A stretch of 54,697 bases of DNA from a virus (taxonomy: Duplodnaviria; Caudoviricetes). The notes under the pieces are model-generated. The model saw only the letters and a list, made by a program, of their open reading frames with translations, did not search any database and was not told where the DNA came from. Location: IMG/VR virus record IMGVR_UViG_3300049926_000074, positions 1 to 54,697 of that record; one strand, 5' to 3'. The position numbers were made by a program, and so were the translations under genes. This document shows positions 14,735 through 30,194 of the stretch, in pieces. Position 1 is the first letter of the stretch; each line of letters begins with the position of its first letter.

Positions 14735-15619
14735 TCAGTTGCCTCTCGTCATCAGTTCGATCATTTCCTCGAGGCCGGTCTCCGGACTCCAGTCGAGATC
14801 CTGCGCGAATCCGTTGCCGTCCCAGGCGATGCGGCTGGGCGCGATCTCGTCGAGGATCTTCGGCGCGGCCGGATCCACGTCGACCGCGTCGAACCACGAC
14901 AGGCCAACGGCGCGCAGCGCCGCCTCGGTCAGGTCGCGTACTGAGTGCTGCGTCCGCGTACACACGATCCAGTCGCCTGGTTCGTCCTGCTCGCCGATGC
15001 GTTGCAGCGCCCGCATGTAGTCCGGCGCGTAGCCCCAGTCCCGTCGGGAGCGCACATCACCGAGGACCAGGCGCTCACCGCTGCCGGCGGCGATACGGGC
15101 GATGGTCGAGCAGATCCGCCGCGCCAGGAACCGGGGGTCCTGCCGCGGCGAGGTGTGGCTGAACAGCACTGCGTTCGAGCAGTGCAGCACGCCGCGATAC
15201 CCGACCAGGGCGTCGTGCGCCAGCACCTTCGCCGAGCCGTACAGCCCGTACCGGTTCGGCTCGAACACCGCCGACGACGAGGCATGCACCAGGCGCGCAT
15301 TCGGAGCCTCGCGCACCATCGCGTCCAGCAGGCGGACCACGCCGACGCCGGACACCTCGGCCAGTAACGGTGGTTGAGGTGTGCCCCACCTTCCGCCGGG
15401 CGAGGTGACTGCGGCGAGGTTGTAGACCACGTCCGGCTTGGTTGTCCGGAGCGCGGTCTCCAACGACTCCTGATCGAGCAGGTCGCCAGACACGAGGCGG
15501 GCGGATGAGGTGGCGTTGTTCCGCCGCACCATGCCGAAGACCCCGTGACCATCGGCGAGGAGTTGCTCCGCCAGGTAGCTGCCGTCCTGGCCTGTCACTC
15601 CGAGGATGAGCGCTCTCAC
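14735..15619 (-). CDS. gmd: GDP-mannose 4,6-dehydratase-like SDR
   Basis: GVTGQDGSYL, VYNLAA, YGSAK, RDWGYAPDY. Confidence 0.85.
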   Translation of the reverse strand: MRALILGVTGQDGSYLAEQLLADGHGVFGMVRRNNATSSARLVSGDLLDQESLETALRTTKPDVVYNLAAVTSPGGRWGTPQPPLLAEVSGVGVVRLLDAMVREAPNARLVHASSSAVFEPNRYGLYGSAKVLAHDALVGYRGVLHCSNAVLFSHTSPRQDPRFLARRICSTIARIAAGSGERLVLGDVRSRRDWGYAPDYMRALQRIGEQDEPGDWIVCTRTQHSVRDLTEAALRAVGLSWFDAVDVDPAAPKILDEIAPSRIAWDGNGFAQDLDWSPETGLEEMIELMTRGN

Positions 15620-16812
15620 AGCAGCACCGGCCCGGGTATCGGGACGATCCAACGGTTGCCCGGGTTGGCGCTCATGATGGCGCGTGCGTAGTTCCAGGCC
15701 GAGAGCAAGTACGCGCTGGGCTGGTTCGCGGCGCGCTCTGTGACGCTCGGCGCCACGATCGGAATGCCAGTGCCAGGGATGAACCGCCCCTGCTTTGCCG
15801 GCGTCGAGTCCACACACCAACGGACCGTCGAGACATTCAGGCCGCAGAAGCTGAGCAGCGTCGTCAACTTGGCTGGCGCACCGTACGCCGCGATCGGGCC
15901 GCTCTGCTCGGCCAGCAGATCCAGAAGCCGCATACAGATCCGCTCGGCCCGGCCCTGCATGCCCTCGTAGGCACCGAAGGAATTGAGCCACAACTCCGAG
16001 CGCCGGATCGTCGAGACGATTGGGGTTGGCAAGTCGTTGCGGTGCGACAGCGTCGCTCGCAGCGAGCCGCCCTGTCTGTCGGTGAGTTCGGCATCGACGA
16101 CATAGAGCCCGTGCCTGCTGGCCGCATGCTCCAGGCTGGTCAGCGAGAAGAAGTTGCGGTGCTCGTGGTACACGAGGTCGAAGGCGTTGTTGACGATCAG
16201 GTCAGGCAGGTACTGCACCTCGACGAACCCGACCGTATGGTCGCCCATGAGGTGCGCCACGCCGGCCAGAAAGTCGGACACTTCCTCGACATGTGCAAGA
16301 ACATGGTTCGCAATGACTACACCGGGCCCGGCCGGGAACTCTTCGGCCACCAGGTCCCTGGCGACCTCGAGGCCGAACGCTTCTGGCGCCACGTTGAGTC
16401 CGCGCTCGGCAGCGACATCGACGGGTCCGGTCGATGGGTCAATGCCGAGGTGTCGTACGTGACCGAAATGCTGCAAGAGGTCGCCGTCGTTACAACCGAT
16501 CTCGACCACACCAGCGCGCACCCGGTCCGGGTAACGCGCTAGTACGTCGTCGGCGTACGCCTTGTGATATGCCGACAGCGGCGCGCTGGCCGAGGAGTAG
16601 AAGCTGTAGCCGGTGCCGAACAGCACGTTCGCCGGGACGACCTCCAGTAGCTGCACAAGCCGGCACTTGGCGCACACCGCGACCTGCAGCGGGTACGTCG
16701 GCGACACCTCGTCGGCGGTGGCGGTGTAGGCGTCGGCGATCGGCGACATGCCGAGGTCAAGGAACTGGTCCAGGTCCGTGTGGCCGCACGCGGCACAGGA
16801 GGTGCGCTTCAC
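15616..16812 (-). CDS. NDP-hexose C-methyltransferase (Zn-binding N-terminus, SAM domain)
   Basis: CAAC..FLDLG..CAKCRLVQL, EIGCNDG, YHEH, AYGAPAK, KQGRFIPGTGIPI. Confidence 0.9.
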   Translation of the reverse strand: MKRTSCAACGHTDLDQFLDLGMSPIADAYTATADEVSPTYPLQVAVCAKCRLVQLLEVVPANVLFGTGYSFYSSASAPLSAYHKAYADDVLARYPDRVRAGVVEIGCNDGDLLQHFGHVRHLGIDPSTGPVDVAAERGLNVAPEAFGLEVARDLVAEEFPAGPGVVIANHVLAHVEEVSDFLAGVAHLMGDHTVGFVEVQYLPDLIVNNAFDLVYHEHRNFFSLTSLEHAASRHGLYVVDAELTDRQGGSLRATLSHRNDLPTPIVSTIRRSELWLNSFGAYEGMQGRAERICMRLLDLLAEQSGPIAAYGAPAKLTTLLSFCGLNVSTVRWCVDSTPAKQGRFIPGTGIPIVAPSVTERAANQPSAYLLSAWNYARAIMSANPGNRWIVPIPGPVLL

Positions 16813-17426
16813 GACTCCTCCCACTTGGCCTGGAAGATGCCCTCCGCGACGTCCCACGCCTCGGCGATCTCGGGCGACTTGAACCCGATCGTGCTGTGGT
16901 GGTGCGTGTCCACGTCGGCCACCACCACCCGCTTGCCGTCCTCAAGGGCGGTCAGGCAGACGTCGTCGTAGCCCAGGAATCCCGGGTACCGAGTGTCGAA
17001 GCGCAGGTTCTCGATCGCCCACGGCGAGAACACCATGATGCTGCCCTCGATGAAGGCCACGTCGCCGGTGCGCGGGCCGAAGTCGAGCATCCCCGAGTCG
17101 GTCATCTGGCGGCCGACGGTTTCCGACTCCCACCACGCCAGCGACTTGCAGCCCTTGCCGCCGCAAACTCCGACCATGGCGACGTCCGGGTCGGCCAGGG
17201 CGTCGAGGAACTTGGCCTCGGCGTCCGGGTCGACGATCTCCAGGTCATCGTGGAGCAGGATTACGGCGTCCAGGTCGCGACCCTGGTAGGAGTCGAGGAT
17301 GGTGTTGTACGCGACCGTGAGCTGCGTCTGTCCGGAAAGGCCAAGGAGTGGACGGCCGCTCGTGCGGGGGATGACGTTGCGGCGCAGCTTCTCCCACGAA
17401 CCGACACAGGTGCCGTACCCGATCAC
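16809..17426 (-). CDS. Glycosyltransferase (GT-A fold)
   Basis: AYN..LLHDD, VGVCG, FD..F.GYDDVC. Confidence 0.8.
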   Translation of the reverse strand: MIGYGTCVGSWEKLRRNVIPRTSGRPLLGLSGQTQLTVAYNTILDSYQGRDLDAVILLHDDLEIVDPDAEAKFLDALADPDVAMVGVCGGKGCKSLAWWESETVGRQMTDSGMLDFGPRTGDVAFIEGSIMVFSPWAIENLRFDTRYPGFLGYDDVCLTALEDGKRVVVADVDTHHHSTIGFKSPEIAEAWDVAEGIFQAKWEES

Positions 17427-18946
17427 CGGTCCGCCCACTTCTTCTCGAAGGTGACCCGGTCGGCCTCCGCCTGCTCGGCCAGGACACCCACCGTCGACTG
17501 GACCGCGTTGGCGTTGATGACCAGCGGCCCGGGCGCGGCCAACACGCCGCCAGCATCGATCAATTGGCGTGCGAAGTCGTCGTCCCCGTACCACCACCGG
17601 AAGGATTCATCCGCCCGAACACCAAGCTCGCCGGCCGTCACGAACGCCCATGGACACATCCGCTTCTCGTGCGGGTACGGGTACTCGGTGACCAGTTCAT
17701 GGCGATGAACCGGAACTGTGCCTGTGTGTGCTGCCGCGAAAACAACTTCGTCACCGGGAGGTCGAAGCACCGTCGCGCAGACATCGAACCAGCCGGCGGG
17801 AACGATCGAGTCGTCGTTGAGAACGCCGATGTCCCAGCGTTCGTGGCCGGCGGCCTTCGCGTGCTCGGCCACGGCGTCGAACATGACGTTCCAGAATCGG
17901 TAGAGGTGCGGCGGCTGCTCGGGGTCGCGAAGGACCTCCACGACGGCGGGCAGTGCGGCCGGAGCGAGTTGCGCCCAGTCCACCGGCGGCTCCGACGCGT
18001 TGTCCAACACCACGATGTGGTCGACCTGCTTGCCCAGCGAACCCACCAGGGCAAGCAGCCGGTCCGGGCGGTTGTGAGTCGGGATGACCGCGTACCGGGG
18101 TACGGTCCGCTCCTCGGCCGGCAGGTTCTCGACCTCTTCCGGCGCCGGAGCCAAGGCCCGCTGCCGCCAGTAGTCCTGCTCCGACAGCCAGACGTTCTTG
18201 CGGTGCGTCGTCTGCACCCCGGTGTGGACGTGGACCGGGATCTCGACCCGCATCAGCCGCATACAGAACGACAGATCCTCGCCGACGAGCTCGCCCGTGG
18301 ATGGATTGGTCACCCGCGTGTACCAGGAGTCCCACCGCGGGTCGCCATCCTTGCGGACGTTCCCCTCGCGCTGGATTTCCTCGTAGGCGTCGCGCACCCG
18401 CTCGAAGACGGAGCGGTGGATCAGAATGCACGCCGAGCCAGTGCCACTCACCCGCGTCAGGGCATCGCGCGGGTAGTCCCAGCGAATCTGGAAACCGCCA
18501 CGGTCGCCCTCGAACGTCCAGTCCATGATGGTCGGCCACGCCACTGGTCGGTAGCCGCCAACACCATCGTGCTCACTCTCGCGCTGAGCGAAGCACATTC
18601 CGCCGACGATGGGTCGCTCAACCGGGTCGGCTGCGGCGAGCAGGCGGTCGATGGTGTCCGGCTCGAAGCCCATGTCAGTGTCGACCCACCACAACCAGTC
18701 GGCGTCGCCGGCGAGGAAGTCGAGCACCCCACCGTTGCGGGCCGCCGCCAGGTCGCCAGTGGTGCCCCGGCGGGCGACGAACCCACCCCGCCATACCCGA
18801 CCCGCGTTCGCGGCGTCGTAGCCCATCAGCTGGACGAAGGAGTGGAAGAAGGAGTAGTCCAGGCGGTCTTCGTGGACGTACGCCACGGCGACCGAGGGCC
18901 CCGGATCTGGCTCTGCCTTCTCAAGCTTGATTCGGTTCGACATCAC
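17423..18946 (-). CDS. Two-domain GT2-like glycosyltransferase
   Basis: Domain 1: ARN..WVDTDM..GEDLSFC; domain 2: VIPTHNR..LDNAS..LNDD..WWYGDDD. Confidence 0.85.
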   Translation of the reverse strand: MMSNRIKLEKAEPDPGPSVAVAYVHEDRLDYSFFHSFVQLMGYDAANAGRVWRGGFVARRGTTGDLAAARNGGVLDFLAGDADWLWWVDTDMGFEPDTIDRLLAAADPVERPIVGGMCFAQRESEHDGVGGYRPVAWPTIMDWTFEGDRGGFQIRWDYPRDALTRVSGTGSACILIHRSVFERVRDAYEEIQREGNVRKDGDPRWDSWYTRVTNPSTGELVGEDLSFCMRLMRVEIPVHVHTGVQTTHRKNVWLSEQDYWRQRALAPAPEEVENLPAEERTVPRYAVIPTHNRPDRLLALVGSLGKQVDHIVVLDNASEPPVDWAQLAPAALPAVVEVLRDPEQPPHLYRFWNVMFDAVAEHAKAAGHERWDIGVLNDDSIVPAGWFDVCATVLRPPGDEVVFAAAHTGTVPVHRHELVTEYPYPHEKRMCPWAFVTAGELGVRADESFRWWYGDDDFARQLIDAGGVLAAPGPLVINANAVQSTVGVLAEQAEADRVTFEKKWADR

Positions 18947-20628: not shown

Positions 20629-22110
20629 TCAGGCCGTGTTCACGAGGAGACGGAAGGCGCTTGTGTTGACAACGCCGCCGCCGATCCTGGAATAGGCGAA
20701 CCATCCCCTTTGTCCGGAAGGCAGGTTGTTCGCCGTTGCGAACAAGTGTGGAATAAGTTCAACGCTCATGCCCGTTCTACGTGCGATGAGGTAGTTCGAG
20801 AAGTCCCCGATGACCGCGAGTCCGCTGTTCGCCGAGGTCGACGTGGTGGTATTGGGCATGTACGGGGATTCATAGACGCTTCGACCCAGCAGGGTGTCCA
20901 TCCACGCCGCCGGCAGGTTGACGGTGTATGCGTGGTAAACGTTCGACTGGCCAAGCTGGCGCATCTTGTCGTTCACGTTCACGTTCATGAGCCAAGACGC
21001 GTTGAACCGGAAGCGCTGCGGCACGGCCTCGTAGGCGGTGTACGGGTCGAGGGGCCCGAAGTTCGTGCCAGACGTCTGGACGCCGACCCGGTTGCCGGCC
21101 GAGGCCGATAGGACGGTCAGGACGCCAAAGGGTTCATTGGTGCCGGAGCCACGGGTGAACTTGTCGATGAGCAGCTCGTCATAACCTTCACTGAGCAAGC
21201 CGGACATCTCGGATGCAAAGGAGGGATAATCCTCTCCGATCTCGATCGAGAACGGAATAAAGCCGCGAGCGGTGTAAACGCTCACTGTCGGTTGGAGCAT
21301 CGATGGTGCATCATCGGAAACCTCGTTGGCTTCCTGATCGAAGGACCAGGTGACGCCAGCCGAGGTAACGCCCTTCCAGGTATTCGTGTTCACGTCCGTC
21401 TGCTTGGCGATCTGCATGAACGGATTCCGCGAGCCCTGCGCCGTCAACATGATCGACGGGTCGATGAACACGGGCACGCCGTAGCCACCGGAGCCAGACG
21501 AAGACGACGCTGCCCGGTACTCGGCGTACGCCTTCATCGCGTCCCGCTCGTCGTCCTCAAGGAACATCTTCGCATCGGGGTCGGTGACCACCTTCAACCA
21601 CGCGGTGCGGTAAGCCTCGTTCTCAGTAACGACGATGCGCCGAGCCACGTCCACGTTGGTGCGGATCTGCTGTTCGACGTGGTCCTTCTCCTCGGAGCGT
21701 AGGTGCGCTGAGGATCTGCGGTCGTCCAGCGTACGGAGTGCCATGTCGCGGACTTCGCTGTTCAGCATGCGGGTAACGCCGTTGCCGCCGTCGATGCCGT
21801 TGCGGATGTTGGCATAGACGCGCTTGACGGCGTCAGGGCGGCGCGAGAACACCTCGGACACGGCCCGGTGGTTCTCGATCTTCTTGAGGGCATCGGCGCG
21901 GACCGCGAGACCGTAGGCGAATGCCTTCTCCTCGGCGTCACTGAGGTCGCGAAGTTCGCCGGTATCTTCCTGGTGGATGGAGCGCAGATGCGCGTCGAGT
22001 ACCTCGACGAGGTTGCGCAGCTCTTCGGGGCTCTTGTGGCTGGTCTCCTCGAACTTGCCATCGGAGACCGAGTCGAGGGTCTTGTCCCTCAACTCTTCGA
22101 CATTGAACAC
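20629..22110 (-). CDS. Major capsid protein, HK97 fold, with N-terminal delta domain
   Basis: Coiled-coil N-terminus, GGYGVP, GSGTNEPFG, TLLGRSV, GDFSNY, RIGG. Confidence 0.95.
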   Translation of the reverse strand: MFNVEELRDKTLDSVSDGKFEETSHKSPEELRNLVEVLDAHLRSIHQEDTGELRDLSDAEEKAFAYGLAVRADALKKIENHRAVSEVFSRRPDAVKRVYANIRNGIDGGNGVTRMLNSEVRDMALRTLDDRRSSAHLRSEEKDHVEQQIRTNVDVARRIVVTENEAYRTAWLKVVTDPDAKMFLEDDERDAMKAYAEYRAASSSSGSGGYGVPVFIDPSIMLTAQGSRNPFMQIAKQTDVNTNTWKGVTSAGVTWSFDQEANEVSDDAPSMLQPTVSVYTARGFIPFSIEIGEDYPSFASEMSGLLSEGYDELLIDKFTRGSGTNEPFGVLTVLSASAGNRVGVQTSGTNFGPLDPYTAYEAVPQRFRFNASWLMNVNVNDKMRQLGQSNVYHAYTVNLPAAWMDTLLGRSVYESPYMPNTTTSTSANSGLAVIGDFSNYLIARRTGMSVELIPHLFATANNLPSGQRGWFAYSRIGGGVVNTSAFRLLVNTA

Positions 22111-22123: not shown

Positions 22124-22876
22124 TCAGGGGAGGGTGACTGGATTGCGCAGGGTCCGGAGGGCCCTTATGCGTGCGAGTTGTGCTGGGTTCGGTGCGTCGC
22201 CCTCCCTGGGCTCCACATCGGATTCACCGCCACCCGCGCTCCTCGCGCTGGGTCGCCCGGCGAAGTTGAGATCCGTGGCGAGGCCAGCTTGGGCTCTCAG
22301 CTCACGGATGAGTTCGGCCCGTTCCTCAGGGGTGAACGTTGCCAGGATTGAACGGACGGATACGGTGGTTGAGGCGTAGGCAGGGAAGACGACTGGCCCG
22401 GCCTCGGGGACGTCGGCATCGGCAACCCGGCGCAGATCCATGCCGCCGTTGCGGCGTTCCCACTGGTCGCCGCCCTTGCTCACCTTGAACCGGAACGACA
22501 TGCCCCTGATGGCCTTGTGCTCGATGGCTTGCCGGACTGGCTCCACCACGGGGTTGTCAAACAGTTCGCCGCGTACGAAGTAGCCCTTGCCGTCTGGTTC
22601 CCACGTGTCGTACTTGCCGATGGGCACCGTGCCGACCCGAGGGTCCTTGCCGTGGTCGAACTGCATCACCGGGTAGCCGCTGTCGCGCAACGACCGGTCG
22701 GCGAATCCGGGCAGCATCTCCTCTTCGAAGTCCCCGGCGTGGTCCGGGATCCGGGTGCGAGTGTTGAAGACGGCGACATGGCCTTCGAGGGTGCGGCCGT
22801 TGCGGCCAGCGGAGCGGAGTTCGAACTCGTAGGCTCGGACGGCGAATCCGATGTCCCGGGTCAGGGCATGCGTCAT
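22124..22876 (-). CDS. HK97-family prohead protease
   Basis: LEGHVAVFN, FEE..PG, FDH, GMSFRF, PAY. Confidence 0.95.
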   Translation of the reverse strand: MTHALTRDIGFAVRAYEFELRSAGRNGRTLEGHVAVFNTRTRIPDHAGDFEEEMLPGFADRSLRDSGYPVMQFDHGKDPRVGTVPIGKYDTWEPDGKGYFVRGELFDNPVVEPVRQAIEHKAIRGMSFRFKVSKGGDQWERRNGGMDLRRVADADVPEAGPVVFPAYASTTVSVRSILATFTPEERAELIRELRAQAGLATDLNFAGRPSARSAGGGESDVEPREGDAPNPAQLARIRALRTLRNPVTLP

Positions 22877-22927
22877 TACCCACGCACCACCTTTCGGTAC
22901 GCGGGCGGGTGCCCGAGATCAGTTGGT

Positions 22928-25900
22928 TTAGCCGGGGCCGATGCGGTTGCCGCGCGGCGGCTTGCCGTGGGCTACGCGGTTCTTGTCGTCGCCGGGCCAG
23001 TAGTGGAAGACGTCATGGAAGAAGCTGGCCGCGAGCCGCTTCGCCATCTCTGGCGGCACGTGCTCTTCGAGGAGATGTTCCAACGTCGTCCAGGGTGTGG
23101 CTGAGTCGACCCAGCGGGCGCGACCCTTGGGGTCGACCGTCCAGTAGTGGTGGAGCTGATCGTGACCCGGCGTGACGTCGTGACCAAGCGCGCGGGTTGT
23201 GATGCCGGCCAGGGCTAGTCCGCAGTCGCGGGCCGCCGAGGTCCTCCGCTTGCGCGGCGCGGCTTTCGTGGTAGGCGCCGCGCCCGGAAGCGACCGCGGC
23301 GACGGGTCCTCGATCATGACGGCGTGCTTGGCCTGGTCGCCGATCACCACGGCCGCGTCGCGGTCCGCCTGGGTCAGCGTCTTCTGGTTGGACTCGGGCA
23401 CGATGTTCGCCCCGGGCTCTTGCTCCAGCCGCTTCAGCGAGGCGTCTACCTCGTGCCGGTTCGTGTCCTCGCCGAGCTGGTTGCGCAGGTCGGCCAAACC
23501 GACCCACGCGCCCGGACTCGCGGCGAGATGGGCGTACGCAGCCCGCACCCGGTTGTCGATCTGGACTGCGCGAATGGCTGGGTCGGTCGACAGGCCGTTC
23601 GCGCCGGTCAGAGCGTCGAGCGCCTTCCTGGCCGGACTCTGTAGATCCGCGTTCTTGATTGCCAAAGCATCGTTTCGAACGCCAACGGTCGCATCCACGA
23701 TCGACTGCTGATACTCGGTCTTGTTCCGCTCTGGCGCCACGTCGAGTGCCTTCGCGACGGCCTTCAACTCAGCGAGCGTCAGGCCTGCGAGAAGTCCATG
23801 GGCCTCGTCGCGGGACTTCGCGTCGGCAAGACCGGCCACGACCTCATCAGTCGATGCCGCTGGTCGCGGTGCTGATGGTGCGGCCTTCTTGACCGCCTTC
23901 GCCGGCGCCGCTACCTCAGGCTTGCCACCCTCGCCCTTCGGGAGCGGGCGAGGCGATGGGTCGCCGATCCAGATGGCATGGTTGTCCTCGTTGCCGATAC
24001 GCAACGCCGCCGCCCGGTCCCGAGGCTTCAACGCCTTCGTGTTCGCCACCGGGATGATGCGGACACGTCCAGGATCGTTGTAGTCGGCCGATAGCAGCAT
24101 CTTCGTTAGGGCCGCGTCCTGTTCCTCGCGGGACAAGTCCCCAAGGTTGTCCCGCAGATCGGCCAGGCCAACCCAGGTGCCGGGCTTCGCGGCGAGCTTC
24201 GAATACGCCTCGCGGACACGGTTGTCGACCTCGACCGCGCGCACTGCGGGATCTGTTGACAAGGCGGCCGGCGCCGCCTTGTTGGCCGGCGCCCGAGGAC
24301 GATCCGGGTTGATCCTTCGGTATCGGTCGACGCCCGGCGTAGCCGAGGTGGGCATCGGGAGCGGCGACGGATCCTGGAAGGACACGGCGTGATGGTCCTC
24401 GCCGCCCATATGCAGCGCCGCTGCCCGATCCCGCTCGGTTAGCGCCTTGATGTTGGCGATCGGGATGATGCGTGCCCCACCCGGCAGGTCCGCGTTGGCC
24501 AGCCGTTTGAGCGCGGCATCCTGCTCCGAGCGAGGGATATCGGACATTTCGTCCCGCAGGTCCGCGATGGCGACCCAGCCGCCGTTCGGGCGGGCTGCGG
24601 CATAGGCCGCACGGAGCCGGTTGTCCACCTCGGCATCACGCAGGGACCGATTCGCCAGATCCGCCAGCGCGGCAGCCTGACGAGCCTTCTGTTCGGCGTC
24701 GAGTTTGGCGTACCACTCGGGCGTGTGCGGAGCCGGTTCGGTACCCCGCCCTGCATCGCGGGCCCGGGCTTTGGCCACCTTCGCAGGTGCGGCCTTCTTC
24801 GCCGGAGCCACACCCTGCTCCTTGGCCGCCCAGTCCGCCAGCTCCGTCTCGCCGTTGTCGCTGGCCCACTTCTCCAGCCCAGCCAGCTCCGGCGCGGTCA
24901 TCACGCGGGCGCCGCGCACACCGGAGTCGGACTCCTCGTACAGGCTGACCTTGCCGTCGGCTTCGTGATAGACGGCCACGTCCTTGTTGCGGAGCTTCGA
25001 GGGCTCGGCCTTCGGCAGCGGGCGCGGCGACGGGTCCTCAATGGCCAGGATCTGATGGGGGGTGCCGCCGAGATCAAGTGCGGCCTCGCGATCACGACGG
25101 CCGGGGGGTTTGAAGGTATCGAGCCGAACGCCCATGTCGAGCGGATCCAGCCGAACACCCTTCTGTCGAGACAACCTCAGCAAAGCCGCGTCAGTGTCTT
25201 CACGACTCAAGTCGCCGAGGTTGTCGCGGAGGTCGGACAGGTGAACCCAGCCACCGGCCAGCTTGGGCAGATCCCGGTACGCCGCGCGGATCTTGTTCTC
25301 GACCTCGACCTCGCGGACGAGCTTCGGATCGGGCTTGCCGTCGCCCTTGAGCGTGAACTTCGCCGACGGCTTCGGCCTAGCCTTGTCCGCCGCGTCGACC
25401 TCGCGGAACGACTGGCGAGCATGTTCGAGAATCGCGTCCTTGATCTCCTTCTCGGACGCGCCGCGACGCATGGCCGGCATGCCGTCGGCCTCCAGCGCCT
25501 TGGCTGCGCGGCGAACCTGCTCGCGGTCGAACTTCGCCAGCGGATCGTCCGGGCCGTCGCCCTTGAGGAAGTCGTGCAGAGCAGCGCCCATGATGGCCGT
25601 CAACTTCGCGAACCGGCCACCCTTACCGCGCGGGTGCTTGGCCGCCTGCTCGACGGACCAGGCCCGCTCCTCGTCGCCCGACAGGCTACGGATCGCAGCA
25701 ACCAGCACCTCGGTGTTCTCGTCGAGGGTGTTGTCCTCGAGGGGGACATCACGGACCTCGATGCCGAGCAGCCGCAGATCCCGGTGACGAAGGGCGGCAG
25801 GCGTGGTTGTGTCCTGACGGATCGCGGCACCCTTGCGTCCCGCCTGGTCCTCAATAGGGCCAAGGCAGATGTAACCGTTAGACCAACCGTCCCGGACCAA

Positions 25901-26056
25901 CCCGGCCGCTAAAGCGTCCCGATCTGGCGTCAGCCGAATGAGTGCTGCGAAAATGTTCGGAGCAGCACCCTCGAAGGTCCCCCGGCCAGTTTCGTCGACA
26001 CTGACAGATCCACCGCTGCCAGCATCGGATCCGACGACCCGCAGTTCTCGCCGCAT
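22928..26056 (-). CDS. Large multidomain head-region protein with four ~100-aa repeats (probable internal/ejected protein)
   Basis: Four xRxAY..WVx(L/I)xDLR..DA(A/S)L..DRxAA..DPSP repeats; HPRGKGGRF motif; AK-rich linkers. Confidence 0.8.
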   Translation of the reverse strand: MRRELRVVGSDAGSGGSVSVDETGRGTFEGAAPNIFAALIRLTPDRDALAAGLVRDGWSNGYICLGPIEDQAGRKGAAIRQDTTTPAALRHRDLRLLGIEVRDVPLEDNTLDENTEVLVAAIRSLSGDEERAWSVEQAAKHPRGKGGRFAKLTAIMGAALHDFLKGDGPDDPLAKFDREQVRRAAKALEADGMPAMRRGASEKEIKDAILEHARQSFREVDAADKARPKPSAKFTLKGDGKPDPKLVREVEVENKIRAAYRDLPKLAGGWVHLSDLRDNLGDLSREDTDAALLRLSRQKGVRLDPLDMGVRLDTFKPPGRRDREAALDLGGTPHQILAIEDPSPRPLPKAEPSKLRNKDVAVYHEADGKVSLYEESDSGVRGARVMTAPELAGLEKWASDNGETELADWAAKEQGVAPAKKAAPAKVAKARARDAGRGTEPAPHTPEWYAKLDAEQKARQAAALADLANRSLRDAEVDNRLRAAYAAARPNGGWVAIADLRDEMSDIPRSEQDAALKRLANADLPGGARIIPIANIKALTERDRAAALHMGGEDHHAVSFQDPSPLPMPTSATPGVDRYRRINPDRPRAPANKAAPAALSTDPAVRAVEVDNRVREAYSKLAAKPGTWVGLADLRDNLGDLSREEQDAALTKMLLSADYNDPGRVRIIPVANTKALKPRDRAAALRIGNEDNHAIWIGDPSPRPLPKGEGGKPEVAAPAKAVKKAAPSAPRPAASTDEVVAGLADAKSRDEAHGLLAGLTLAELKAVAKALDVAPERNKTEYQQSIVDATVGVRNDALAIKNADLQSPARKALDALTGANGLSTDPAIRAVQIDNRVRAAYAHLAASPGAWVGLADLRNQLGEDTNRHEVDASLKRLEQEPGANIVPESNQKTLTQADRDAAVVIGDQAKHAVMIEDPSPRSLPGAAPTTKAAPRKRRTSAARDCGLALAGITTRALGHDVTPGHDQLHHYWTVDPKGRARWVDSATPWTTLEHLLEEHVPPEMAKRLAASFFHDVFHYWPGDDKNRVAHGKPPRGNRIGPG

Positions 26057-26058
26057 GT

Positions 26059-26883
26059 CTAGGCCACCCTTCTGGTGGTCCCGACCGCACGCGGCTCAAA
26101 GATCGCGAGGTTCTCCATCATGGTGTCAAACCAGTCCAGACGGTGAAGCCGCTCGAACTCCGGCCGCAAAGATTCCAGGCGCTGTCGAATCAACGTCAGA
26201 TCGCCGGGCGAAATATCGATGTGCTCCGCCCAGTTGTTGTGGGCCTCGTTGGAGAATTCATCCGAGAAGTAGCCGAGGCCATTGCTCGCATGGTGTCCGA
26301 AAGACAGCGCGTGATCGATCGCGACAATCCCGCCGTCGTCCTGGAGGAGAAAGTTGCCGGCGTGACGGTCCGGGTTTCCTGCGAGTAGATCGAATAGACC
26401 AAGGAGTCGGCCCTGGTCGGAGTTCACTACCTCTTCCGGCGGCGCGACCCAGGGCGAAATTGAGCTGTGATCGATGTGTCGGCCATCCATGAATTCCATT
26501 TGGAGTTCTGTCGGTCCCGCGCGGTACACGGCCGGCGCGCGAACACCAACCGCGTTGGCTACGAGTGACCCGAGTTCCTCGGCGTCTGCCTGATGGACAC
26601 CGGTGATTCCCTCGGCGTCGCGGGGCGTTTTGTGAATCGTGACAGTGCCATCGGCGTGAGTCTCTCGCGCGGTGCCACCCATGAAGCCGCCGTTGCCCTC
26701 GGACTTCACAACCAGCGACCCAGCGGATTCCCTCACGCGTCGAGCACGGCCGCTCAGTGATTCCCAATTGCCCACGGCTCCAATCGGGATCCAGCCATGC
26801 TTGTAGTGCTGGCCCGGGTGCGGATGACCGCGCAGTTCGATACCCGCGAGGCGAAGAGTCCGATCGCGGGTCAAGGTGTCCAC
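26059..26883 (-). CDS. HipA/PI3-PI4-kinase-fold kinase
   Basis: IHK..AEELGS, FDLLAGNPDRHAGNFL, IDHALSF. Confidence 0.85.
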   Translation of the reverse strand: MDTLTRDRTLRLAGIELRGHPHPGQHYKHGWIPIGAVGNWESLSGRARRVRESAGSLVVKSEGNGGFMGGTARETHADGTVTIHKTPRDAEGITGVHQADAEELGSLVANAVGVRAPAVYRAGPTELQMEFMDGRHIDHSSISPWVAPPEEVVNSDQGRLLGLFDLLAGNPDRHAGNFLLQDDGGIVAIDHALSFGHHASNGLGYFSDEFSNEAHNNWAEHIDISPGDLTLIRQRLESLRPEFERLHRLDWFDTMMENLAIFEPRAVGTTRRVA

Positions 26884-26886: not shown

Positions 26887-28365
26887 TCACCCCTTCGCAG
26901 GTGCGGGCTTGGCGGACTTCACTGGCGGCGCCGGCTTGCGGGGTGCCGCACCGGGATCGGTCGGTGCGACTGGTGCCGAAGTGTCAGTGGGCTGGCTGGC
27001 TACCATTCCCGGCGGCTGAAGCTGCACACTCAGGTTGCCGGTGTGCTTCAGTCGCGACACGTCACCGGTCTGCACCGCCTCAACCGACGACTCCGGCGTG
27101 AACCCGGCGTTGACATACGCCACGATCGACGCCTGCTTGATTTGCTCGATCTCCGCCGCGTCCTTCGAGTCCTCGCGGAGGATCGGCATGTCGTCGGTCA
27201 GGTACCACAACTCGGCGTCGTTCGGGACCTTCGTCACCGACGCCAACGACGCGGCCAGATCCTGCAGGGTCGGATAGATCCAGGTGTCCGCCATGATGCG
27301 GCGCGCCATGCCGAAGTTGCCGGCGTTCAGGCTCGATCCGGCCAAGCCCTCCGAGATACCTAACACTGACGCGGGAACGCGGGACAGATAGGAGATCCTG
27401 GTTTCGCCAGCGCCCATGATGGCCTTCAGGTCCATCTGCTGCCAGTTCGAGCCGACCACCGTGGCGTCAGCACCTGCAGTCAGGTAGAGCGTCTTGAAGG
27501 CGTTGCGGACTCCGGTGTGGTTCGACTCGATCATGTCGACGATCTCGTCGAACTGCCCCTTGGTCATCGCCGGGATGCCCTTGACCACAAGATTCGGGCT
27601 CGCGCCGTTCTTCCAGAACTGAAGCTTGTGCTCGGTGGCCGCCTGGTCGCCCTGCATGTCCCGAATTGCTGGCGTCAGCCACGACATCCCGATGCCGCCA
27701 CCCTCGGGATCCGGCATGGGCGACCAGTGGGCGACTTCATCGGGCAGCAGGGTCTGCACTCGGTGGAACATCCCAGCGACCGCGCCATTGCCCGGAGCGG
27801 TTAGACCACCGTTGGCGTAGACGTAGCCGACGACCTCGCCGTCCAGCGCCGTAGCCGCGTCCTGCGGCTCCTGCTCGCTGCCGTAGACGATCGCCGTCCA
27901 ATCCGGCCGTAGGACTCGCAGCCGGCCGGCCGTACGGTTCGTCACGTAGGCATTGCCGGCCAAGCCGGCGTGCCACTCCATCTTCGTTATCAGCTCACCC
28001 GTGGTGCCGTTCGGCCACGGGCGCTCGAGCAGCGACAGGTCCCGGTTCCCGAACGTCTTGCGCGGACCGCCAGCGGATGGCCGCGACCGGAACGTGAACC
28101 GGGCCTGCGACAGAACCAGCGCCCGCACCATCTCGGCCGCGAACGCCGGCGGACACCTGCGCAGCGCGGCCGCGTAGCTCGGCAGCGTCGCCATGATCTC
28201 CGTGACGCGCATGCCCGGAGAGGTCATGTTCAGACCCTGGATGCCGCCGAACTGGTTCAAGGCTGGCTGGAGGAAGTCGCTGTACCAGGTGTCGATGGAG
28301 TTCCGCTCTTCAACGCCGGTTCCACCACGGCGCGCGAGGCGGGCCTGCACGCGATCAGCCAACAC
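26887..28365 (-). CDS. Portal protein (HK97-like); start uncertain (28362-28392)
   Basis: GNAY, LRPD, EVAH, FWKNGASP; directly after terminase. Confidence 0.9.
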   Translation of the reverse strand: MLADRVQARLARRGGTGVEERNSIDTWYSDFLQPALNQFGGIQGLNMTSPGMRVTEIMATLPSYAAALRRCPPAFAAEMVRALVLSQARFTFRSRPSAGGPRKTFGNRDLSLLERPWPNGTTGELITKMEWHAGLAGNAYVTNRTAGRLRVLRPDWTAIVYGSEQEPQDAATALDGEVVGYVYANGGLTAPGNGAVAGMFHRVQTLLPDEVAHWSPMPDPEGGGIGMSWLTPAIRDMQGDQAATEHKLQFWKNGASPNLVVKGIPAMTKGQFDEIVDMIESNHTGVRNAFKTLYLTAGADATVVGSNWQQMDLKAIMGAGETRISYLSRVPASVLGISEGLAGSSLNAGNFGMARRIMADTWIYPTLQDLAASLASVTKVPNDAELWYLTDDMPILREDSKDAAEIEQIKQASIVAYVNAGFTPESSVEAVQTGDVSRLKHTGNLSVQLQPPGMVASQPTDTSAPVAPTDPGAAPRKPAPPVKSAKPAPAKG

Positions 28366-28561
28366 GCGAATACCTGTCCCGCACGTCGGCATAGCCGGTC
28401 TGAGTGGCGGCGACGGCGAAGCGATACGCGATGACGGCGGCCGCGGCAGTCGAGCCGGCGACCAGGAACGGCAGAGCCAGCAGGCTCAGCAGCAACGGCA
28501 TTACCCGGACACGGGTACGCCAGTCAGCGATCCGGGCCACCGAGTAGTCGAGCGCGGTCAC
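28355..28561 (-). CDS. Small membrane protein between terminase and portal
   Basis: AAGGAGG+GTG; hydrophobic core. Confidence 0.65.
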   Translation of the reverse strand: MTALDYSVARIADWRTRVRVMPLLLSLLALPFLVAGSTAAAAVIAYRFAVAATQTGYADVRDRYSRVG

Positions 28562-28574: not shown

Positions 28575-30194
28575 CTAGCGGTAGGCGCCGAAGAAGGCGG
28601 GAGGCGGAGCCAGGAAGCCGTCTTCGATGGCTTGCCCGCGGGCATGGTGGGCGAGCACGGCGGCCACAGCCAGGTCGATGAGCATTCCGTCGCCGCGTTT
28701 GGCCATCTTCAGGTAGTGGGTGGCGACGTTGTCTTCCTCGCCAGGCCGAGCCTTCTTCTTGCCGCCCTTAACCAACACGGCGTTCTTCATGTGTCGGGCC
28801 AGGCTTGGCGAGCCGTCGTGCGTGATCTCGCCCTCGGCGAAGGAGGTCTGGAACCGCTCTATCGCCTTGTCCATGCGTTGCTCGACGTTGGTCGGGAACT
28901 CCACGATCTTGTCGGGGAAGGCCGCGGACCAGTTGTCGAGGTAGTCCTGCCATCGGTACGGGTCCGCGAACAGGTAGCTGACCCGATATGCCGCGAACGT
29001 GTCGCGGACTACGCGGTCCACCTCGGCGCCCGGAACTTTCCAGTCCTTCGGGGCATCGGGTGGCCGCTCCCAGACCCGCAGACAGAACAGGCGGCCGTCG
29101 GACAGCCGGGACGCGACCAACGCGGTCGCATCGTGGTACTTCGAGCCGTCGAAGCCCAGCGCGATCGCTTCGTCCTTGACTAGTGGCGCGTCATCAAGGC
29201 CGGCCAGGGCCCAGCGGATCGGGTCAACGAACACCGACTCACCGACGACGATCTCGTTCAGGAAGAACCGGCGCCGATCAGCCTCGAGGTGTCGGGCCGA
29301 TCGGACCTCGTGGAAGATGCGGCCCTTGATGTTCACCCAGCCGCCGCGCTCGCGTGCGGAGTCGCCGTACTGGCGCATCAGCTCCGCATACAACGCCTCG
29401 TCGTCCTGGAGGTCCTCGACGCGGTGCGGCTCGACGGTGTCGACATATACCCGCTCGTCACCGGACTCCGCGGTCACCTGCGCCTCGGAGCCCTCCGTCG
29501 GGTCCCAGGCGTTGGTGAGCTCCAGCCAACGCCCATCCATGCCGGCGACGTTGCGCTTCACGGCGCCACACACTTTCCGGTGCCCGCCCTGCAGGGTGAA
29601 CAGGTGGGACTCGGTGATCGTCACGAACGACATCGGCGCGCCAAGGCGGGCCCGGGCGCTCGTCGTGACTGGCTCGATCTTTCCGCCCGAGGGGAGGTTG
29701 ACCCGCGTCTCGCCGGCATCCATGCCGGGCAGGTTGATCAGCGGTCCGAGCCGAATCATGCTCAGCAACGGCCGCCAGGTGTTGTCCGTCTGGTCCTCGC
29801 TGGTGCCAAGACAGGCCATCAGCGGCGTTGGGTACGGAGCGCCGACCGGCTCACCATCAGCGTTCCAACCGTCGAACCGGCCAGGGCCGAGCGCCTCGCC
29901 GAGAATCATCCCGGCGCCGAACGGGTCCTTGCCCCACTTCTGGCTGCGTCGCAACTGGCCGCCGGTGAATCTCAGCGCATCCGGCGCGGGCCAAGGTTCG
30001 GCATACGGGTACAGGCGATAAAAGTGGATCAGGAACTTCCACATCTCGTCCGTCAGCAGGAATGGCTCACCCTGCCGGTAGCCGTCCGGGATGACGACGT
30101 GCGCTTCGATCCATTCGCCCATGTCGTACCCGAGCGTTGGGAACTCACCCGGCTCATTGGGACCGCGCCAGCCGGAGCCTCTGCGCCGCGGCAT
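28575..30194 (-). CDS. terL: Terminase large subunit
   Basis: RSQKWGKD Walker A variant, GFDGS..DATA and IDLAVA nuclease motifs. Confidence 0.92.
   Translation of the reverse strand: MPRRRGSGWRGPNEPGEFPTLGYDMGEWIEAHVVIPDGYRQGEPFLLTDEMWKFLIHFYRLYPYAEPWPAPDALRFTGGQLRRSQKWGKDPFGAGMILGEALGPGRFDGWNADGEPVGAPYPTPLMACLGTSEDQTDNTWRPLLSMIRLGPLINLPGMDAGETRVNLPSGGKIEPVTTSARARLGAPMSFVTITESHLFTLQGGHRKVCGAVKRNVAGMDGRWLELTNAWDPTEGSEAQVTAESGDERVYVDTVEPHRVEDLQDDEALYAELMRQYGDSARERGGWVNIKGRIFHEVRSARHLEADRRRFFLNEIVVGESVFVDPIRWALAGLDDAPLVKDEAIALGFDGSKYHDATALVASRLSDGRLFCLRVWERPPDAPKDWKVPGAEVDRVVRDTFAAYRVSYLFADPYRWQDYLDNWSAAFPDKIVEFPTNVEQRMDKAIERFQTSFAEGEITHDGSPSLARHMKNAVLVKGGKKKARPGEEDNVATHYLKMAKRGDGMLIDLAVAAVLAHHARGQAIEDGFLAPPPAFFGAYR

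What the first reader, a model, noticed from the sequence alone, without database searches (positions are those of the whole stretch)
22124..26883. Candidate capsid cargo-loading system: shared packaging tag plus cleavage site on non-structural proteins between portal and protease
Seen: the kinase starts RDRTLRLAGIELR-G. The 1042-aa protein has RHRDLRLLGIEVR-D (LRLLGIEVR at 25751-25777) and a degenerate RDCGLALAGITTR-A (about 23190-23230) ahead of its last domain. The protease ends RIRALRTL. ExR sites also sit at likely maturation points: capsid EYR-A just before GGYGVP, portal EER-N, protease ELR-S, and EER-AW in the large protein. Established: the HK97 protease is encapsidated through a C-terminal peptide and removes the capsid delta domain, and T4 loads internal proteins through a cleavable targeting sequence. 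Inference: RxRxLRL is a portable encapsidation tag copied from the protease, and GIExR releases the cargo for injection.
Basis: partly seen in the sequence, partly recalled or inferred. Interest (0 to 1): 0.85.

Follow-up and report, generated by a model that had tools for sequence, protein, structure and literature searches.

The report
Shared leader peptide on phage head cargo
A complete temperate actinobacterial phage carries, between its portal and head-protease genes, enzymes that begin with a short conserved leader peptide which recurs in front of many unrelated enzyme domains in related phages and resembles the tail of the head protease, so it probably directs proteins into the capsid for delivery with the DNA.

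Summary
The shared motif is real. It is the first half (A: RxRxLxLxG[IV]) of a two-part leader.

- **Portability:** In related viral and metagenomic sequences the leader precedes ADP-ribosyltransferase, NUDIX, GNAT, zeta-toxin, zincin-like and kinase-like domains. It often occurs several times within one polyprotein.
- **Location:** It lies in a variable island between portal and S78 protease. That island is at least 1 kb in 32 of 64 non-redundant loci.
- **Link to the protease:** A profile built only from cargo A motifs also picks out protease C-termini (21 of 72, against 0 of 117 capsid/portal C-termini). It also picks out one helix of the capsid delta domain.
- **Selection:** B1 is under purifying selection at the peptide level.
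- **Structure:** AlphaFold2 leaves the kinase's first 40 residues disordered.

Cleavage after ExR is plausible. The capsid carries EYR|A at the position and spacing of the HK97 maturation site. But ExR as a tripeptide is not enriched, and P1 Arg is not universal.

No result here shows encapsidation, cleavage or injection.

Verdict: a new variant of phage cargo-targeting/polyvalent-protein systems. Interpretation partly supported.

The parts
26887..28392 (-). Portal protein (501 aa). A conserved N-terminal E-x-R sits at aa 28-30 (28303-28311).
   Evidence: Pfam Phage_portal E=4.5e-26. E-x-R lies three residues before D-x-W in 40 of 40 unique related portals.
26059..26883 (-). Cargo 1: protein-kinase-like enzyme (274 aa) with a 40-residue N-terminal leader.
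   Evidence: Weak Pfam PI3_PI4_kinase and ABC1 hits, both below cut-off. AF2 model pLDDT 77.8, pTM 0.79, with residues 1-40 below pLDDT 50. Foldseek top hits are PRPK/Bud32, RIO kinases, macrolide phosphotransferases and CtkA, with 264 hits at E<=0.001.
26830..26868 (-). Leader part A on the kinase: RDRTLRLAGIELR (aa 6-18), ending in the candidate cleavage site ELR|G.
   Evidence: Recurs at the N-termini of unrelated proteins P0012, P0013, P0014, P0019 and others.
26785..26829 (-). Leader part B1 on the kinase: GHPHPGQHYKHGWIP (aa 19-33).
   Evidence: Core of a profile that finds 57 cluster representatives at E<=0.001 in 1.84 billion proteins. Among 12 DNA copies there are 412 synonymous against 130 non-synonymous codon differences.
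22928..26056 (-). Cargo 2: 1042-aa modular protein. Order: N-domain, junction (A, acidic linker, B2), HeH/SAP-like segment, four ~95-aa repeats, degenerate A, C-terminal domain.
   Evidence: No Pfam family above cut-off. C-terminus hits phrog_29860 'virion structural protein' and phrog_6439. Repeat boundaries.
25751..25789 (-). Leader part A inside the large protein: RHRDLRLLGIEVR (aa 90-102), ending EVR|D.
   Evidence: The same internal junction type is seen in P0015, P0018, P0023, P0037, L022 and L060.
25610..25672 (-). EER|AW (aa 129-133) followed by the B2 motif HPRGKGGRF (aa 141-149).
   Evidence: The pattern R-[ASD]-[FW]-x-P..HP[RH]..GG.F recurs in relatives. [ED]xR lies within 16 aa upstream in 17 of 40 unique B2 contexts, against 747 of 5000 background windows.
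23285..25309 (-). Four tandem ~95-aa repeats (aa 250-348, 475-569, 608-706, 831-924), function unknown. One such repeat precedes B1 plus the kinase in homologue P0007.
   Evidence: No Pfam or PHROG hit. The atlas gave no usable hit.
23192..23230 (-). Degenerate A motif RDCGLALAGITTR (aa 943-955) ahead of the last domain.
   Evidence: Homologous proteins carry a canonical A here, for example in L035, L022 and L003.
22931..23191 (-). C-terminal 'HHYWT' domain (aa 956-1042), ending in a B-like HGKPPRGNRIGPG.
   Evidence: phrog_29860 and phrog_6439. Found in 158 cultured-phage records, 150 of them Gordonia, in genes annotated capsid maturation protease, virion structural protein or RNA ligase. In L018 the same domain runs straight into B1.
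22124..22876 (-). S78 prohead serine protease (250 aa). The C-terminal tail aa 230-250 (22127-22189) contains RIRALRTL (22148-22171).
   Evidence: Pfam Peptidase_S78 E=4.8e-20. Tail types and profile test. The window's own tail scores only 2.3 bits.
20629..22110 (-). Major capsid protein with a 199-aa delta (scaffold) domain. Predicted maturation site EYR|A at 21514-21522. A-like helix SEVRDMALRTLDDR at aa 118-131 (21718-21759).
   Evidence: Pfam Phage_capsid from aa 208. E-[YF]-R is nearly invariant in relatives. The spacing to G-x-x-hydrophobic-P equals that of HK97. The delta segment reaches >=5 bits in 23 of 90 related capsids, but not in the window's own. Helix 117-129 appears in a low-confidence AF2 model.
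28575..30194 (-). Large terminase, upstream boundary of the head module.
   Evidence: phrog_19179 and phrog_9.

Best explanation
The window is a complete temperate siphophage genome of a high-G+C (actinobacterial-type) host. Its portal-to-protease interval is a variable cargo island. The island encodes non-structural enzymes that are loaded into the procapsid and delivered with the DNA.

Each cargo module is preceded by a disordered leader of about 35-80 residues with three parts.
1. **Motif A** (D..xRxRxLxLxG[IV]). It is homologous to the C-terminal tail of the S78 prohead protease and to one helix of the capsid delta domain. I infer that it docks the cargo to the scaffold or inner surface of the assembling procapsid, as the protease tail is thought to do.
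2. **A basic site** (often [ED]-x-R followed by G, A, S or D). It resembles the capsid's own E-Y-R|A maturation site. I infer that the prohead protease cuts here. That would separate polyprotein modules and detach them from the tag.
3. **Motif B** (GHPHPGQxYKHGWIP, or R-A-[FW]-[ND]-P..HPR..GG.F). After such a cut it would form the new N-terminus of each mature module. Its role is unknown. Possibilities are retention, DNA or portal contact, or ejection.

**Shown here:** the anatomy, portability, genomic position, purifying selection, the disorder of the leader, the kinase-like fold, and the family-level similarity to protease tails.

**Inferred only:** binding, cleavage, packaging and injection.
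For: **Head-module context.** Terminase, portal, S78 protease and HK97-type capsid are confirmed. The record is a 100%-complete virus with terminal repeats.

**Portability.**
- Homologue search of the kinase returned two proteins that share only the first ~35 residues. One is an ADP-ribosyltransferase, the other is unknown.
- Viral and metagenome scans gave leaders immediately after the portal gene, and repeated inside polyproteins.
- The tag profile found 57 representatives at E<=0.001. Two of them are low-complexity false hits.
- 51 of the 57 were scanned with Pfam, and 23 had a family: ART 7, PG_binding_1 5, GNAT 4, NUDIX 3, portal fusions 3, Zeta_toxin 2, and 2H ligase, ATLF-like zincin, S78 protease fusion and DUF6582 one each.

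**Cargo island.**
- In 64 non-redundant loci the portal-to-protease gap runs from 3 bp to 6.8 kb.
- 32 of 64 loci have a gap of at least 1 kb, and 26 of those 32 carry at least one of A, B1, B2 or the C-domain.
- Motif counts in 115 kb of island against 812 kb of the rest: A 22/12, B1 5/1, B2 23/4, C-domain 19/0.

**Protease link.**
- An HMM built from 47 cargo A motifs scores >=5 bits on 21 of 72 unique protease C-termini. It does so on 0 of 117 capsid/portal C-termini and 12 of 1315 internal windows.
- The internal hits are one delta-domain helix, in 23 of 90 capsids, plus a portal-cargo fusion.
- The L092 and L038 tails are near-identical to cargo leaders.

**Selection.** Among 12 DNA copies of B1, 412 codon differences are synonymous and 130 non-synonymous across 1056 codon pairs.

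**Disorder.** Leader residues 1-40 have pLDDT below 50 next to a confident kinase fold.

**Cleavage plausibility.**
- The capsid E-[YF]-R is nearly invariant. It lies nine residues before G-x-x-hydrophobic-P, as does the basic residue before the mature HK97 N-terminus (the HK97 site itself is recalled).
- [ED]xR follows 28 of 49 A motifs within 12 residues, and precedes 17 of 40 B2 motifs. Background is 747 of 5000 windows.
- When extra residues separate A from B1, an E-x-R still abuts B1.
Against: - No experiment and no structure bears on binding, cleavage or packaging.
- In the window alone, the protease tail versus delta domain is not significant (545 of 2000 shuffles reach the score). The window's tail scores 2.3 bits with the A profile, and its capsid helix is below 5 bits.
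- ExR is not enriched or depleted in cargo as a whole: 25 observed against 21.6 expected.
- In the wider B1 family P1 is Arg in only 38 of 62 contexts. A, K, E and P also occur.
- Co-variation of each protease tail with its own locus's C-domain leader is marginal. Mean self score is 19.5 against 17.7 +/- 1.07 when permuted, and 253 of 5000 permutations reach it. A whole group of 'DDYDLFLL' leaders sits with non-matching tails.
- Portal-cargo and protease-cargo fusions keep the junction although they need no targeting. That fits a release site better than a tag.
- Sequences in the profile tests are related, so the p-values overstate independence.
- The claim that the HK97 protease tail is an encapsidation signal rests on my recall of Duda et al. 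2013. That paper was not held.
Confidence: 0.5

Rival explanations
1. The junction is only a polyprotein processing and recognition signal for the prohead protease. Motif A is a substrate-docking element. Its likeness to the protease tail and to a delta-domain segment reflects autoprocessing or pseudo-substrate and scaffold-digestion sites. Cargo enters the head by another route, such as portal contact, bulk capture or the C-terminal domain.
For: - Junctions recur between domains of polyproteins.
- They persist in portal-cargo and cargo-protease fusions, where targeting is redundant.
- The window's delta domain has RMLNSEVRD aligned to RLLGIEVRD of the large protein. Only 52 of 2000 shuffles reach that score.
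- All 5 ExR of the capsid lie in the delta domain and none in the mature part.
Against: - Protease tails carry A at the extreme C-terminus with no residue after it to cleave.
- Many stand-alone cargo genes begin with M-D-x-x-x-R-x-R, so A is N-terminal and would be lost after a cut. That is the layout of a removable targeting peptide.
- ExR is not a strict feature.
Confidence: 0.2
2. The leader acts at delivery rather than at loading. B1/B2, and perhaps A, bind the portal, the DNA end or the tail channel. That would let cargo leave the head with the genome, functionally replacing the MuF/gp7 type of portal-associated head protein.
For: - Leader genes always start directly after the portal gene, or are fused to it.
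- No MuF domain was found in the window's two cargo proteins.
- B1 is the most conserved element, and it would stay on the mature protein if cleavage is after ExR.
- SAP/HeH-like DNA-binding segments follow B2.
Against: - Nothing links B1 to the portal beyond gene order.
- It does not explain why A resembles protease tails.
- No sequence match to any solved structure.
Confidence: 0.15
3. The conserved leader is mainly a recombination junction. It would resemble the conserved pre-toxin boundaries of polymorphic toxin systems, which allow effector cassettes to be swapped, and would have no assembly role of its own.
For: - The island is highly mosaic, with the same leader before many different domains.
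- Truncated remnants exist, for example the L006 small ORF that joins A to the last 25 residues of the C-domain.
Against: - DNA identity is not conserved. Four-fold sites of the invariant Pro and Gly codons use three or four different codons, and 412 of 542 codon differences are synonymous.
- That shows selection on the peptide, not on a DNA crossover site.
- It also does not explain the likeness to protease tails.
Confidence: 0.08
4. Chance resemblance of Arg/Leu-rich low-complexity peptides in a high-G+C proteome.
For: BLASTP within the window gives only E=0.096. Out-of-frame Arg-rich ORFs produce some regex hits, and L020 and L021 are spurious.
Against: - The profile search of 1.84 billion proteins finds the tag at E down to 1e-16.
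- Hits are position-specific: N-termini or domain boundaries in the portal-protease island.
- Controls: 0 of 117 and 12 of 1315.
Confidence: 0.02

Closest known systems
Phage T4 capsid targeting sequence (CTS) of internal proteins IPI-III and Alt
   Same: A short N-terminal propeptide directs non-structural proteins, including an ADP-ribosyltransferase, into the prohead. The prohead protease then removes it, and the proteins are ejected with the DNA (described in the introduction of PMC7411985, passages read).
   Different: T4 uses a different protease family (gp21) and a separate scaffold core. There is no sequence relation. Here the tag is shared with the protease's own tail, is followed by a second conserved motif, and is reused inside polyproteins. 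Function here is inferred only.
HK97 gp4 protease C-terminal encapsidation peptide (Duda, Oh & Hendrix 2013)
   Same: Same protease family (S78) and the same portal-protease-capsid-with-delta-domain layout. A C-terminal peptide of the protease is held to bring it into the prohead.
   Different: The HK97 claim is recalled, because the paper was not held. HK97 has no cargo genes between portal and protease. Its tail shows no significant likeness to its delta domain (162 of 2000 shuffles). Use of a protease-tail-like peptide on other proteins turned up in none of my searches.
Polyvalent proteins of phages and conjugative elements (Iyer, Burroughs, Anand, de Souza & Aravind 2017, PMC5512222)
   Same: Multidomain proteins encoded beside portal and terminase. 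They combine ART, NUDIX, GNAT, 2H, kinase, zincin and SAP domains, include portal fusions, and are predicted to be packaged and injected (abstract and passages read).
   Different: That paper proposes processing by zincin-like metallopeptidase domains. The passages I read do not mention this leader or junction, or the prohead protease as processor. I did not read the whole text or its supplementary site. Its kinase family is from other phyla.
MuF polymorphic toxins of temperate phages (Jamet et al. 2017, PMC5576092)
   Same: A conserved N-terminal head-incorporation module next to the portal gene, with variable C-terminal toxin or effector domains (search listing and abstract start only).
   Different: The conserved module there is the folded MuF domain. 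Here it is a disordered peptide of about 35 residues, and no MuF domain was detected in the window's cargo.
Propeptides of giant-phage (SPN3US/phiKZ-type) ejection proteins
   Same: N-terminal propeptides proposed to target head proteins, and a protease C-terminal propeptide proposed to target the protease. All are removed by the prohead protease (PMC7411985, passages read).
   Different: Unrelated sequences and protease specificity. No shared motif between protease and cargo is reported in the passages read.
Herpesvirus protease-scaffold arrangement
   Same: The protease enters the procapsid because it carries the same capsid-binding C-terminus as the scaffold protein. That C-terminus is then cut off by the protease (PMC12474303, passages read).
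   Different: There the sharing comes from nested genes. Here three separate genes (capsid delta domain, protease, cargo) carry similar short peptides.

Membership tests
Polyvalent / packaged effector proteins of phages (Iyer et al. 2017) | Encoded in a (pro)phage next to portal-terminase packaging genes | tested here: met
   Both genes lie between portal and S78 protease. The same holds in related loci.
Polyvalent / packaged effector proteins of phages (Iyer et al. 2017) | Two or more effector-type domains in one polypeptide, drawn from the ART, NUDIX, GNAT, 2H, kinase, peptidase and DNA-binding repertoire | tested here: inconclusive
   Relatives meet it, for example L003 with NUDIX, kinase-like and ART domains, and P0026 with portal, NUDIX and ART. 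In the window, the kinase-like protein has a single domain, and the 1042-aa protein is modular but has no recognised catalytic domain.
Polyvalent / packaged effector proteins of phages (Iyer et al. 2017) | Physically packaged in the virion and transferred to the host | not testable with these tools
   The only hint is the PHROG label 'virion structural protein' for the C-terminal domain family and the same GenBank annotation in Gordonia phages.
T4-type capsid targeting sequence | Short N-terminal peptide sufficient to bring a foreign protein into the prohead | not testable with these tools
   Only portability across natural proteins is shown.
T4-type capsid targeting sequence | Removed by the prohead protease at a defined site | not testable with these tools
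   The candidate site [ED]-x-R is like the capsid's E-Y-R|A, but it is not universal.
HK97-type protease-tail encapsidation signal | Sequence homology of the cargo tag to the protease C-terminal tail | tested here: met
   At family level the cargo-only profile hits 21 of 72 tails, against 0 of 117 and 12 of 1315 controls. In the window itself the match is weak (2.3 bits).
HK97-type protease-tail encapsidation signal | Tail and tag bind the same site of the capsid or delta domain | not testable with these tools
The AF2 capsid model was too poor to use, with pLDDT 52.8.
MuF polymorphic toxins | N-terminal MuF (Phage_Mu_F) domain | tested here: not met
   No MuF hit in P0003 or P0004 at E<=0.1.
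Protein kinase-like superfamily (cargo 1) | Bilobal kinase fold with a catalytic-loop D/N and a metal-binding D | tested here: met
   Foldseek hits to PRPK/Bud32, RIO, Mph and CtkA kinases. GNPDRHxGN and IDHA are conserved in 7 homologues, with invariant D172, N177 and D190. Pfam hits are below cut-off. Activity and substrate are untested.
Caudovirus prohead protease S78 / HK97-type capsid with delta domain | Pfam family match and portal-protease-capsid gene order | tested here: met
   PF04586 E=4.8e-20. PF05065 E=2.3e-31 starting at aa 208, after a helical 199-aa N-terminal domain.

The most novel reading that the evidence does not exclude
Scaffold mimicry as a modular loading code. Cargo leaders and the protease tail are copies of one helix of the capsid's own delta (scaffold) domain. 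They would slip into the scaffold bundles under the capsomers during assembly. Any protein given this roughly 15-residue peptide, plus an E-x-R release site, would then be packed into an HK97-type head. The strongly conserved GHPHPGQxYKHGWIP peptide left on every mature module would be a second, separate signal for exit through the portal and tail with the DNA. Together they would form a two-signal 'load and eject' address system that phages use to shuffle anti-host enzymes.
Probability: 0.2. Interest if true: 0.85.

Novelty: new variant of a known kind. Interest (0 to 1): 0.72.

Why it matters
How HK97-like phages, the commonest capsid type, choose which non-structural proteins go into the head is largely unknown outside T4 and the giant phages.

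A short, portable, sequence-defined leader shared by the protease and by dozens of effector domains would give a directly testable loading rule. The effector domains include ADP-ribosyltransferase, NUDIX, GNAT, zeta-toxin kinase, 2H phosphoesterase, zincin and kinase-like types.

It would also give a way to find packaged anti-defence or host-takeover enzymes in metagenomes by their address label. And it could serve as a tool for loading foreign proteins into HK97-type capsids or related nanocompartments.

It would further add prohead-protease junctions as a processing route for polyvalent proteins.

Tried and rejected
- **Complex prediction.** Complex prediction (capsid alignment A6 with tag alignment A7) was not available. 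No binding test was done.
- **Capsid fold.** AF2 of the capsid with 43 sequences gave pLDDT 52.8 and pTM 0.34. That is too poor to place the A-like helix, so no fold search was run on it.
- **ExR depletion in folded cargo.** The window's large protein has 3 ExR against 5.5 expected, all in the first 131 residues. Over 7 cargo proteins the count is 25 against 21.6, so the idea was dropped.
- **Co-variation of the capsid site with the cargo site.** Impossible, because E-[YF]-R is nearly invariant.
- **Co-variation of protease tail with own leader.** Marginal: 253 of 5000 permutations reach the observed score.
- **HK97 tail versus delta domain.** Not significant.
- **Genome-collection scan by portal.** Gave 8 loci. 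None had the B1 tag, and only L006 had A motifs.
- **Tag profile in sampled genomes.** Found in 0 of 401 sampled genomes of one actinobacterial class at E<=1e-4. The tool warns that this shows nothing without a positive control.
- **Cultured-phage collection.** No match to the junction region. Only 3 records matched the kinase domain.
- **PDB sequence search with the tag.** Nothing at E<=10.
- **ESM atlas on a repeat.** No usable hit.
- **Earlier scan notes.** None.
- **Papers.** Duda 2013 and Veesler 2014 were not held. Searches for a described junction motif or for protease-tail tags on cargo turned up none. Those searches cover only the open library.
- **Tat signal.** Rejected by eye, with no call testing it, because the leader has no twin-arginine pair and no hydrophobic core.

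Full report
**What the window is**

The 54,697-bp window is a whole virus record with direct terminal repeats, rated 100% complete. PHROG scans show a temperate siphophage.
- Integrase at 48509-49666.
- RecT-like and RusA-like genes.
- Tape-measure protein at 6642-8990.
- Major tail proteins.
- Endolysin at 3093-4067.

The head module lies on the minus strand:
- large terminase, 28575-30194
- portal, 26887-28392 (PF04860)
- a 274-aa protein, 26059-26883
- a 1042-aa protein, 22928-26056
- S78 prohead protease, 22124-22876 (PF04586)
- HK97-type capsid, 20629-22110 (PF05065 from residue 208, after a 199-residue helical delta domain)

**Checking the observation**

Within the window, the kinase and large-protein motifs share 9 of 13 residues. 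That level was reached by 1 of 300 shuffles. BLASTP gives only E=0.096.

The ExR tripeptide is near expectation in each head protein. The exception is that all five ExR in the capsid lie in the delta domain.

**The motif is a portable leader, and it has a second half**

A homologue search with the kinase-like protein returned 8 proteins at E<=0.001 among 1679 candidates, itself included.
- Two of them (P0012, P0013) share only the first ~35 residues. One continues into an ADP-ribosyltransferase domain, the other into an unknown domain.
- The shared piece is motif A plus a strongly conserved GHPHPGQHYKHGWIP, which I call B1.
- Another kinase homologue (P0007) has B1 but no A. It is preceded by one copy of the repeat found four times in the window's large protein.

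A scan of viral contigs with the 50-residue leader gave 4 loci from 92 candidate stretches.
- In three of them the leader ORF starts directly after the portal gene. In the fourth (L003) the contig starts just upstream of the leader ORF, so no portal is visible.
- L003 has a 1724-residue polyprotein with three junctions and NUDIX, kinase-like and ADP-ribosyltransferase domains.
- L002 has two junctions, a peptidoglycan-binding domain and the same C-terminal domain as the window's large protein.

A metagenome scan gave 9 loci from 291 stretches.
- Two are duplicates of earlier contigs.
- Two are out-of-frame false hits.
- One (L013) is a polyprotein in which a zincin-like module and an ADP-ribosyltransferase module are each preceded by A plus B1.

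A profile of 11 leaders was searched against 1.84 billion cluster representatives. It found 57 proteins at E<=0.001, nine of them at <=1e-10. Two are low-complexity false hits.

I Pfam-scanned 51 of the 57, and 23 had a family:

| Pfam family | Proteins |
|---|---|
| ADP-ribosyltransferase | 7 |
| PG_binding_1 | 5 |
| GNAT | 4 |
| NUDIX | 3 |
| SAP/Rho_N-type | 3 |
| Phage_portal (portal-cargo fusions, leader at the joint) | 3 |
| Zeta_toxin | 2 |
| 2H/RNA-ligase | 1 |
| ATLF-like zincin | 1 |
| Peptidase_S78 (cargo-protease fusion) | 1 |
| DUF6582 | 1 |

A second kind of B motif (B2) follows many internal junctions.

They carry a canonical A at the same place before the same last domain.

**A variable cargo island**

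A protease alignment retrieved 270 relatives from viral contigs, and the best 80 were kept.

In 64 non-redundant loci with both portal and protease, the gap between them ranges from 3 bp to 6.8 kb.
- 32 of 64 have a gap of at least 1 kb.
- Of these, 10 carry A, 5 carry B1, 17 carry B2 and 17 carry the C-terminal domain. 26 carry at least one.

Motif counts in 115 kb of island against 812 kb of remaining sequence:

| Motif | Island | Rest |
|---|---|---|
| A | 22 | 12 |
| B1 | 5 | 1 |
| B2 | 23 | 4 |
| C-domain | 19 | 0 |

**Relation to the protease tail and the delta domain**

Protease C-termini in these loci fall into a few types.
- Some are almost the cargo leader itself. The L092 and L038-40 tails against the L003, window and L006 leaders are examples.
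- An HMM built only from 47 unique cargo A motifs scores >=5 bits on 21 of 72 unique protease C-terminal 24-mers.
- It does so on 0 of 117 capsid/portal C-termini and on 12 of 1315 random internal windows.
- The Mann-Whitney p of 5e-30 overstates independence, because the sequences are related.

Scanning the whole proteins shows where the internal hits fall.
- They are one delta-domain helix (consensus EARDRALRxLDDR), in 23 of 90 capsids.
- Two more are junctions in a portal-cargo fusion.
- In proteases, only the tail is hit.

The window itself is a weak member of this pattern.
- Its tail scores 2.3 bits.
- Its capsid helix (residues 118-131) stays below 5 bits.
- Its tail versus its own delta domain is not significant (545 of 2000 shuffles).

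Each tail matches its own locus's C-domain leader only marginally better than other loci's. Mean scores are 19.5 against 17.7 +/- 1.07, and 253 of 5000 permutations reach the observed value. There are striking matches (L025, L044, L003, L046). There is also a whole group of leaders that do not match their tails.

**Peptide-level selection and disorder**

In 12 DNA copies of the 16-codon R-G-B1 core, the invariant Pro and Gly codons use three or four synonymous forms. Of the codon differences, 412 are synonymous and 130 are not. The peptide is therefore what is conserved, not a DNA crossover site.

AlphaFold2 on the kinase-like protein (7-sequence alignment) gives pLDDT 77.8 and pTM 0.79. Residues 1-40 fall below pLDDT 50. 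Foldseek places residues 41-274 among protein-kinase-like folds.

**The cleavage idea**

The capsid E-[YF]-R followed by A, T or V is nearly invariant. It lies nine residues before G-x-x-hydrophobic-P. That is the same spacing as the basic residue before the mature N-terminus in HK97 (sequence; the HK97 site is recalled). The D3 paper's statement of a 102-residue scaffold domain in HK97 agrees with this.

A close solved homologue (PDB 9lw6, E=7e-68) has EVR-A at the aligned place. I found no paper for that entry.

[ED]xR follows 28 of 49 A motifs within 12 residues and precedes 17 of 40 B2 motifs. Background is 747 of 5000 windows. Where extra residues separate A from B1, an E-x-R still abuts B1.

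Against this, P1 is Arg in only 38 of 62 unique B1 contexts, with acidic P3 in 20 and acidic P2 in 13. ExR as such is not enriched in cargo.

The portal E-x-R is present in 40 of 40 unique portals. The segment before it is itself conserved, so it may simply be structural. The protease ELR-S lies in the conserved S78 core.

**Comparison with what is known**

The system works like the T4 capsid-targeting sequence and the giant-phage propeptides (PMC7411985, passages).

It fits the gene content of the polyvalent proteins of Iyer et al. (PMC5512222, abstract and passages). Those authors propose zincin peptidases as processors. The passages I read do not describe this leader.

It occupies the genomic place of MuF toxins (PMC5576092, listing and abstract start only), but it lacks a MuF domain.

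The sharing of one peptide by scaffold, protease and cargo recalls the herpesvirus protease-scaffold arrangement (PMC12474303, passages).

D3 and HK97 procapsid structures show that delta domains form coiled-coil towers plus a P-domain-bound region (PMC12749128, passages). That gives a plausible docking place, but nothing here tests it.

**Limits**

The family is so far almost wholly metagenomic.
- The junction region has no match in 50,697 cultured-phage records.
- The tag was not found in 401 sampled genomes.
- The closest cultured capsids are about 38% identical: Gordonia phages and Mycobacterium phage Che9c.
- The C-terminal domain of the large protein does occur in 158 cultured-phage records, mostly Gordonia. 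There it sits in genes annotated as capsid maturation protease or virion structural protein.

**Verdict**

The targeting-plus-cleavage reading is the best available explanation, but it is unproven.

Noticed in passing
window 17423-18946 (minus strand), with neighbours 13306-16857: A glycosyltransferase-like gene (phrog_34859) and several unassigned genes sit between the capsid and the head-tail adaptor. Related loci L005 and L011 also have glycosyltransferase- and methyltransferase-like ORFs after the capsid. This may indicate virion glycosylation.
   Followed up: no
L002 7180-8430, L003 5963-6994, L005, L006; protein P0024: Many related S78 proteases carry an N-terminal DUF6582 extension that the window's protease lacks. 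In P0024 a free DUF6582 ends in EYR and runs straight into a B1 motif, so DUF6582 also behaves like a cargo module.
   Followed up: partly
P0017, P0026, P0068; L044 2018-4795; P0039: Natural fusions exist of portal to cargo, with the leader at the joint. One fusion joins a PG-binding domain, B1 and S78 protease in a single protein.
   Followed up: partly
window 23285-25309 (minus strand): Four tandem ~95-residue repeats in the large protein (VDNRVRxAY...DPSPRPLP) have no family match. One copy precedes the kinase in homologue P0007. They may form a winged-helix-like DNA- or protein-binding unit.
   Followed up: partly
window 22931-23191 (minus strand); L101 (Gordonia phage Wizard gp16): The 'HHYWT' C-terminal domain is widespread in Gordonia phages. 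It is often fused to a different type of capsid maturation protease, and is preceded there by an A-like stretch. In L018 it is followed directly by B1 and another domain.
   Followed up: partly
window 28303-28311 (minus strand) and 40 related portals: An E-x-R three residues before D-x-W is invariant in this portal family, after a conserved short N-terminal helix (GLLERI-type). Whether the portal is N-terminally processed is open.
   Followed up: partly
L006 6886-7269: A small ORF joins an A motif directly to the last ~25 residues of the C-terminal domain. It looks like a deletion remnant of a cargo module.
   Followed up: no
window 25418-25561 (minus strand): A conserved segment follows B2 (GDGPDDPL.F.R.Q...AA.A.G......GAS...I.A.IL). 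It recurs in L002, L003, L006, L011 and P0011 and resembles HeH/SAP/Rho_N DNA-binding motifs. SAP or Rho_N Pfam hits occur in relatives P0042 and P0065.
   Followed up: partly
L020 1582-1947, L021 1493-1849: Two metagenome contigs contain NLRLAGIELRGHPH inside an Arg/Pro/Ala-rich ORF that looks like an out-of-frame reading. I treated this as a chance or frame artefact.
   Followed up: no
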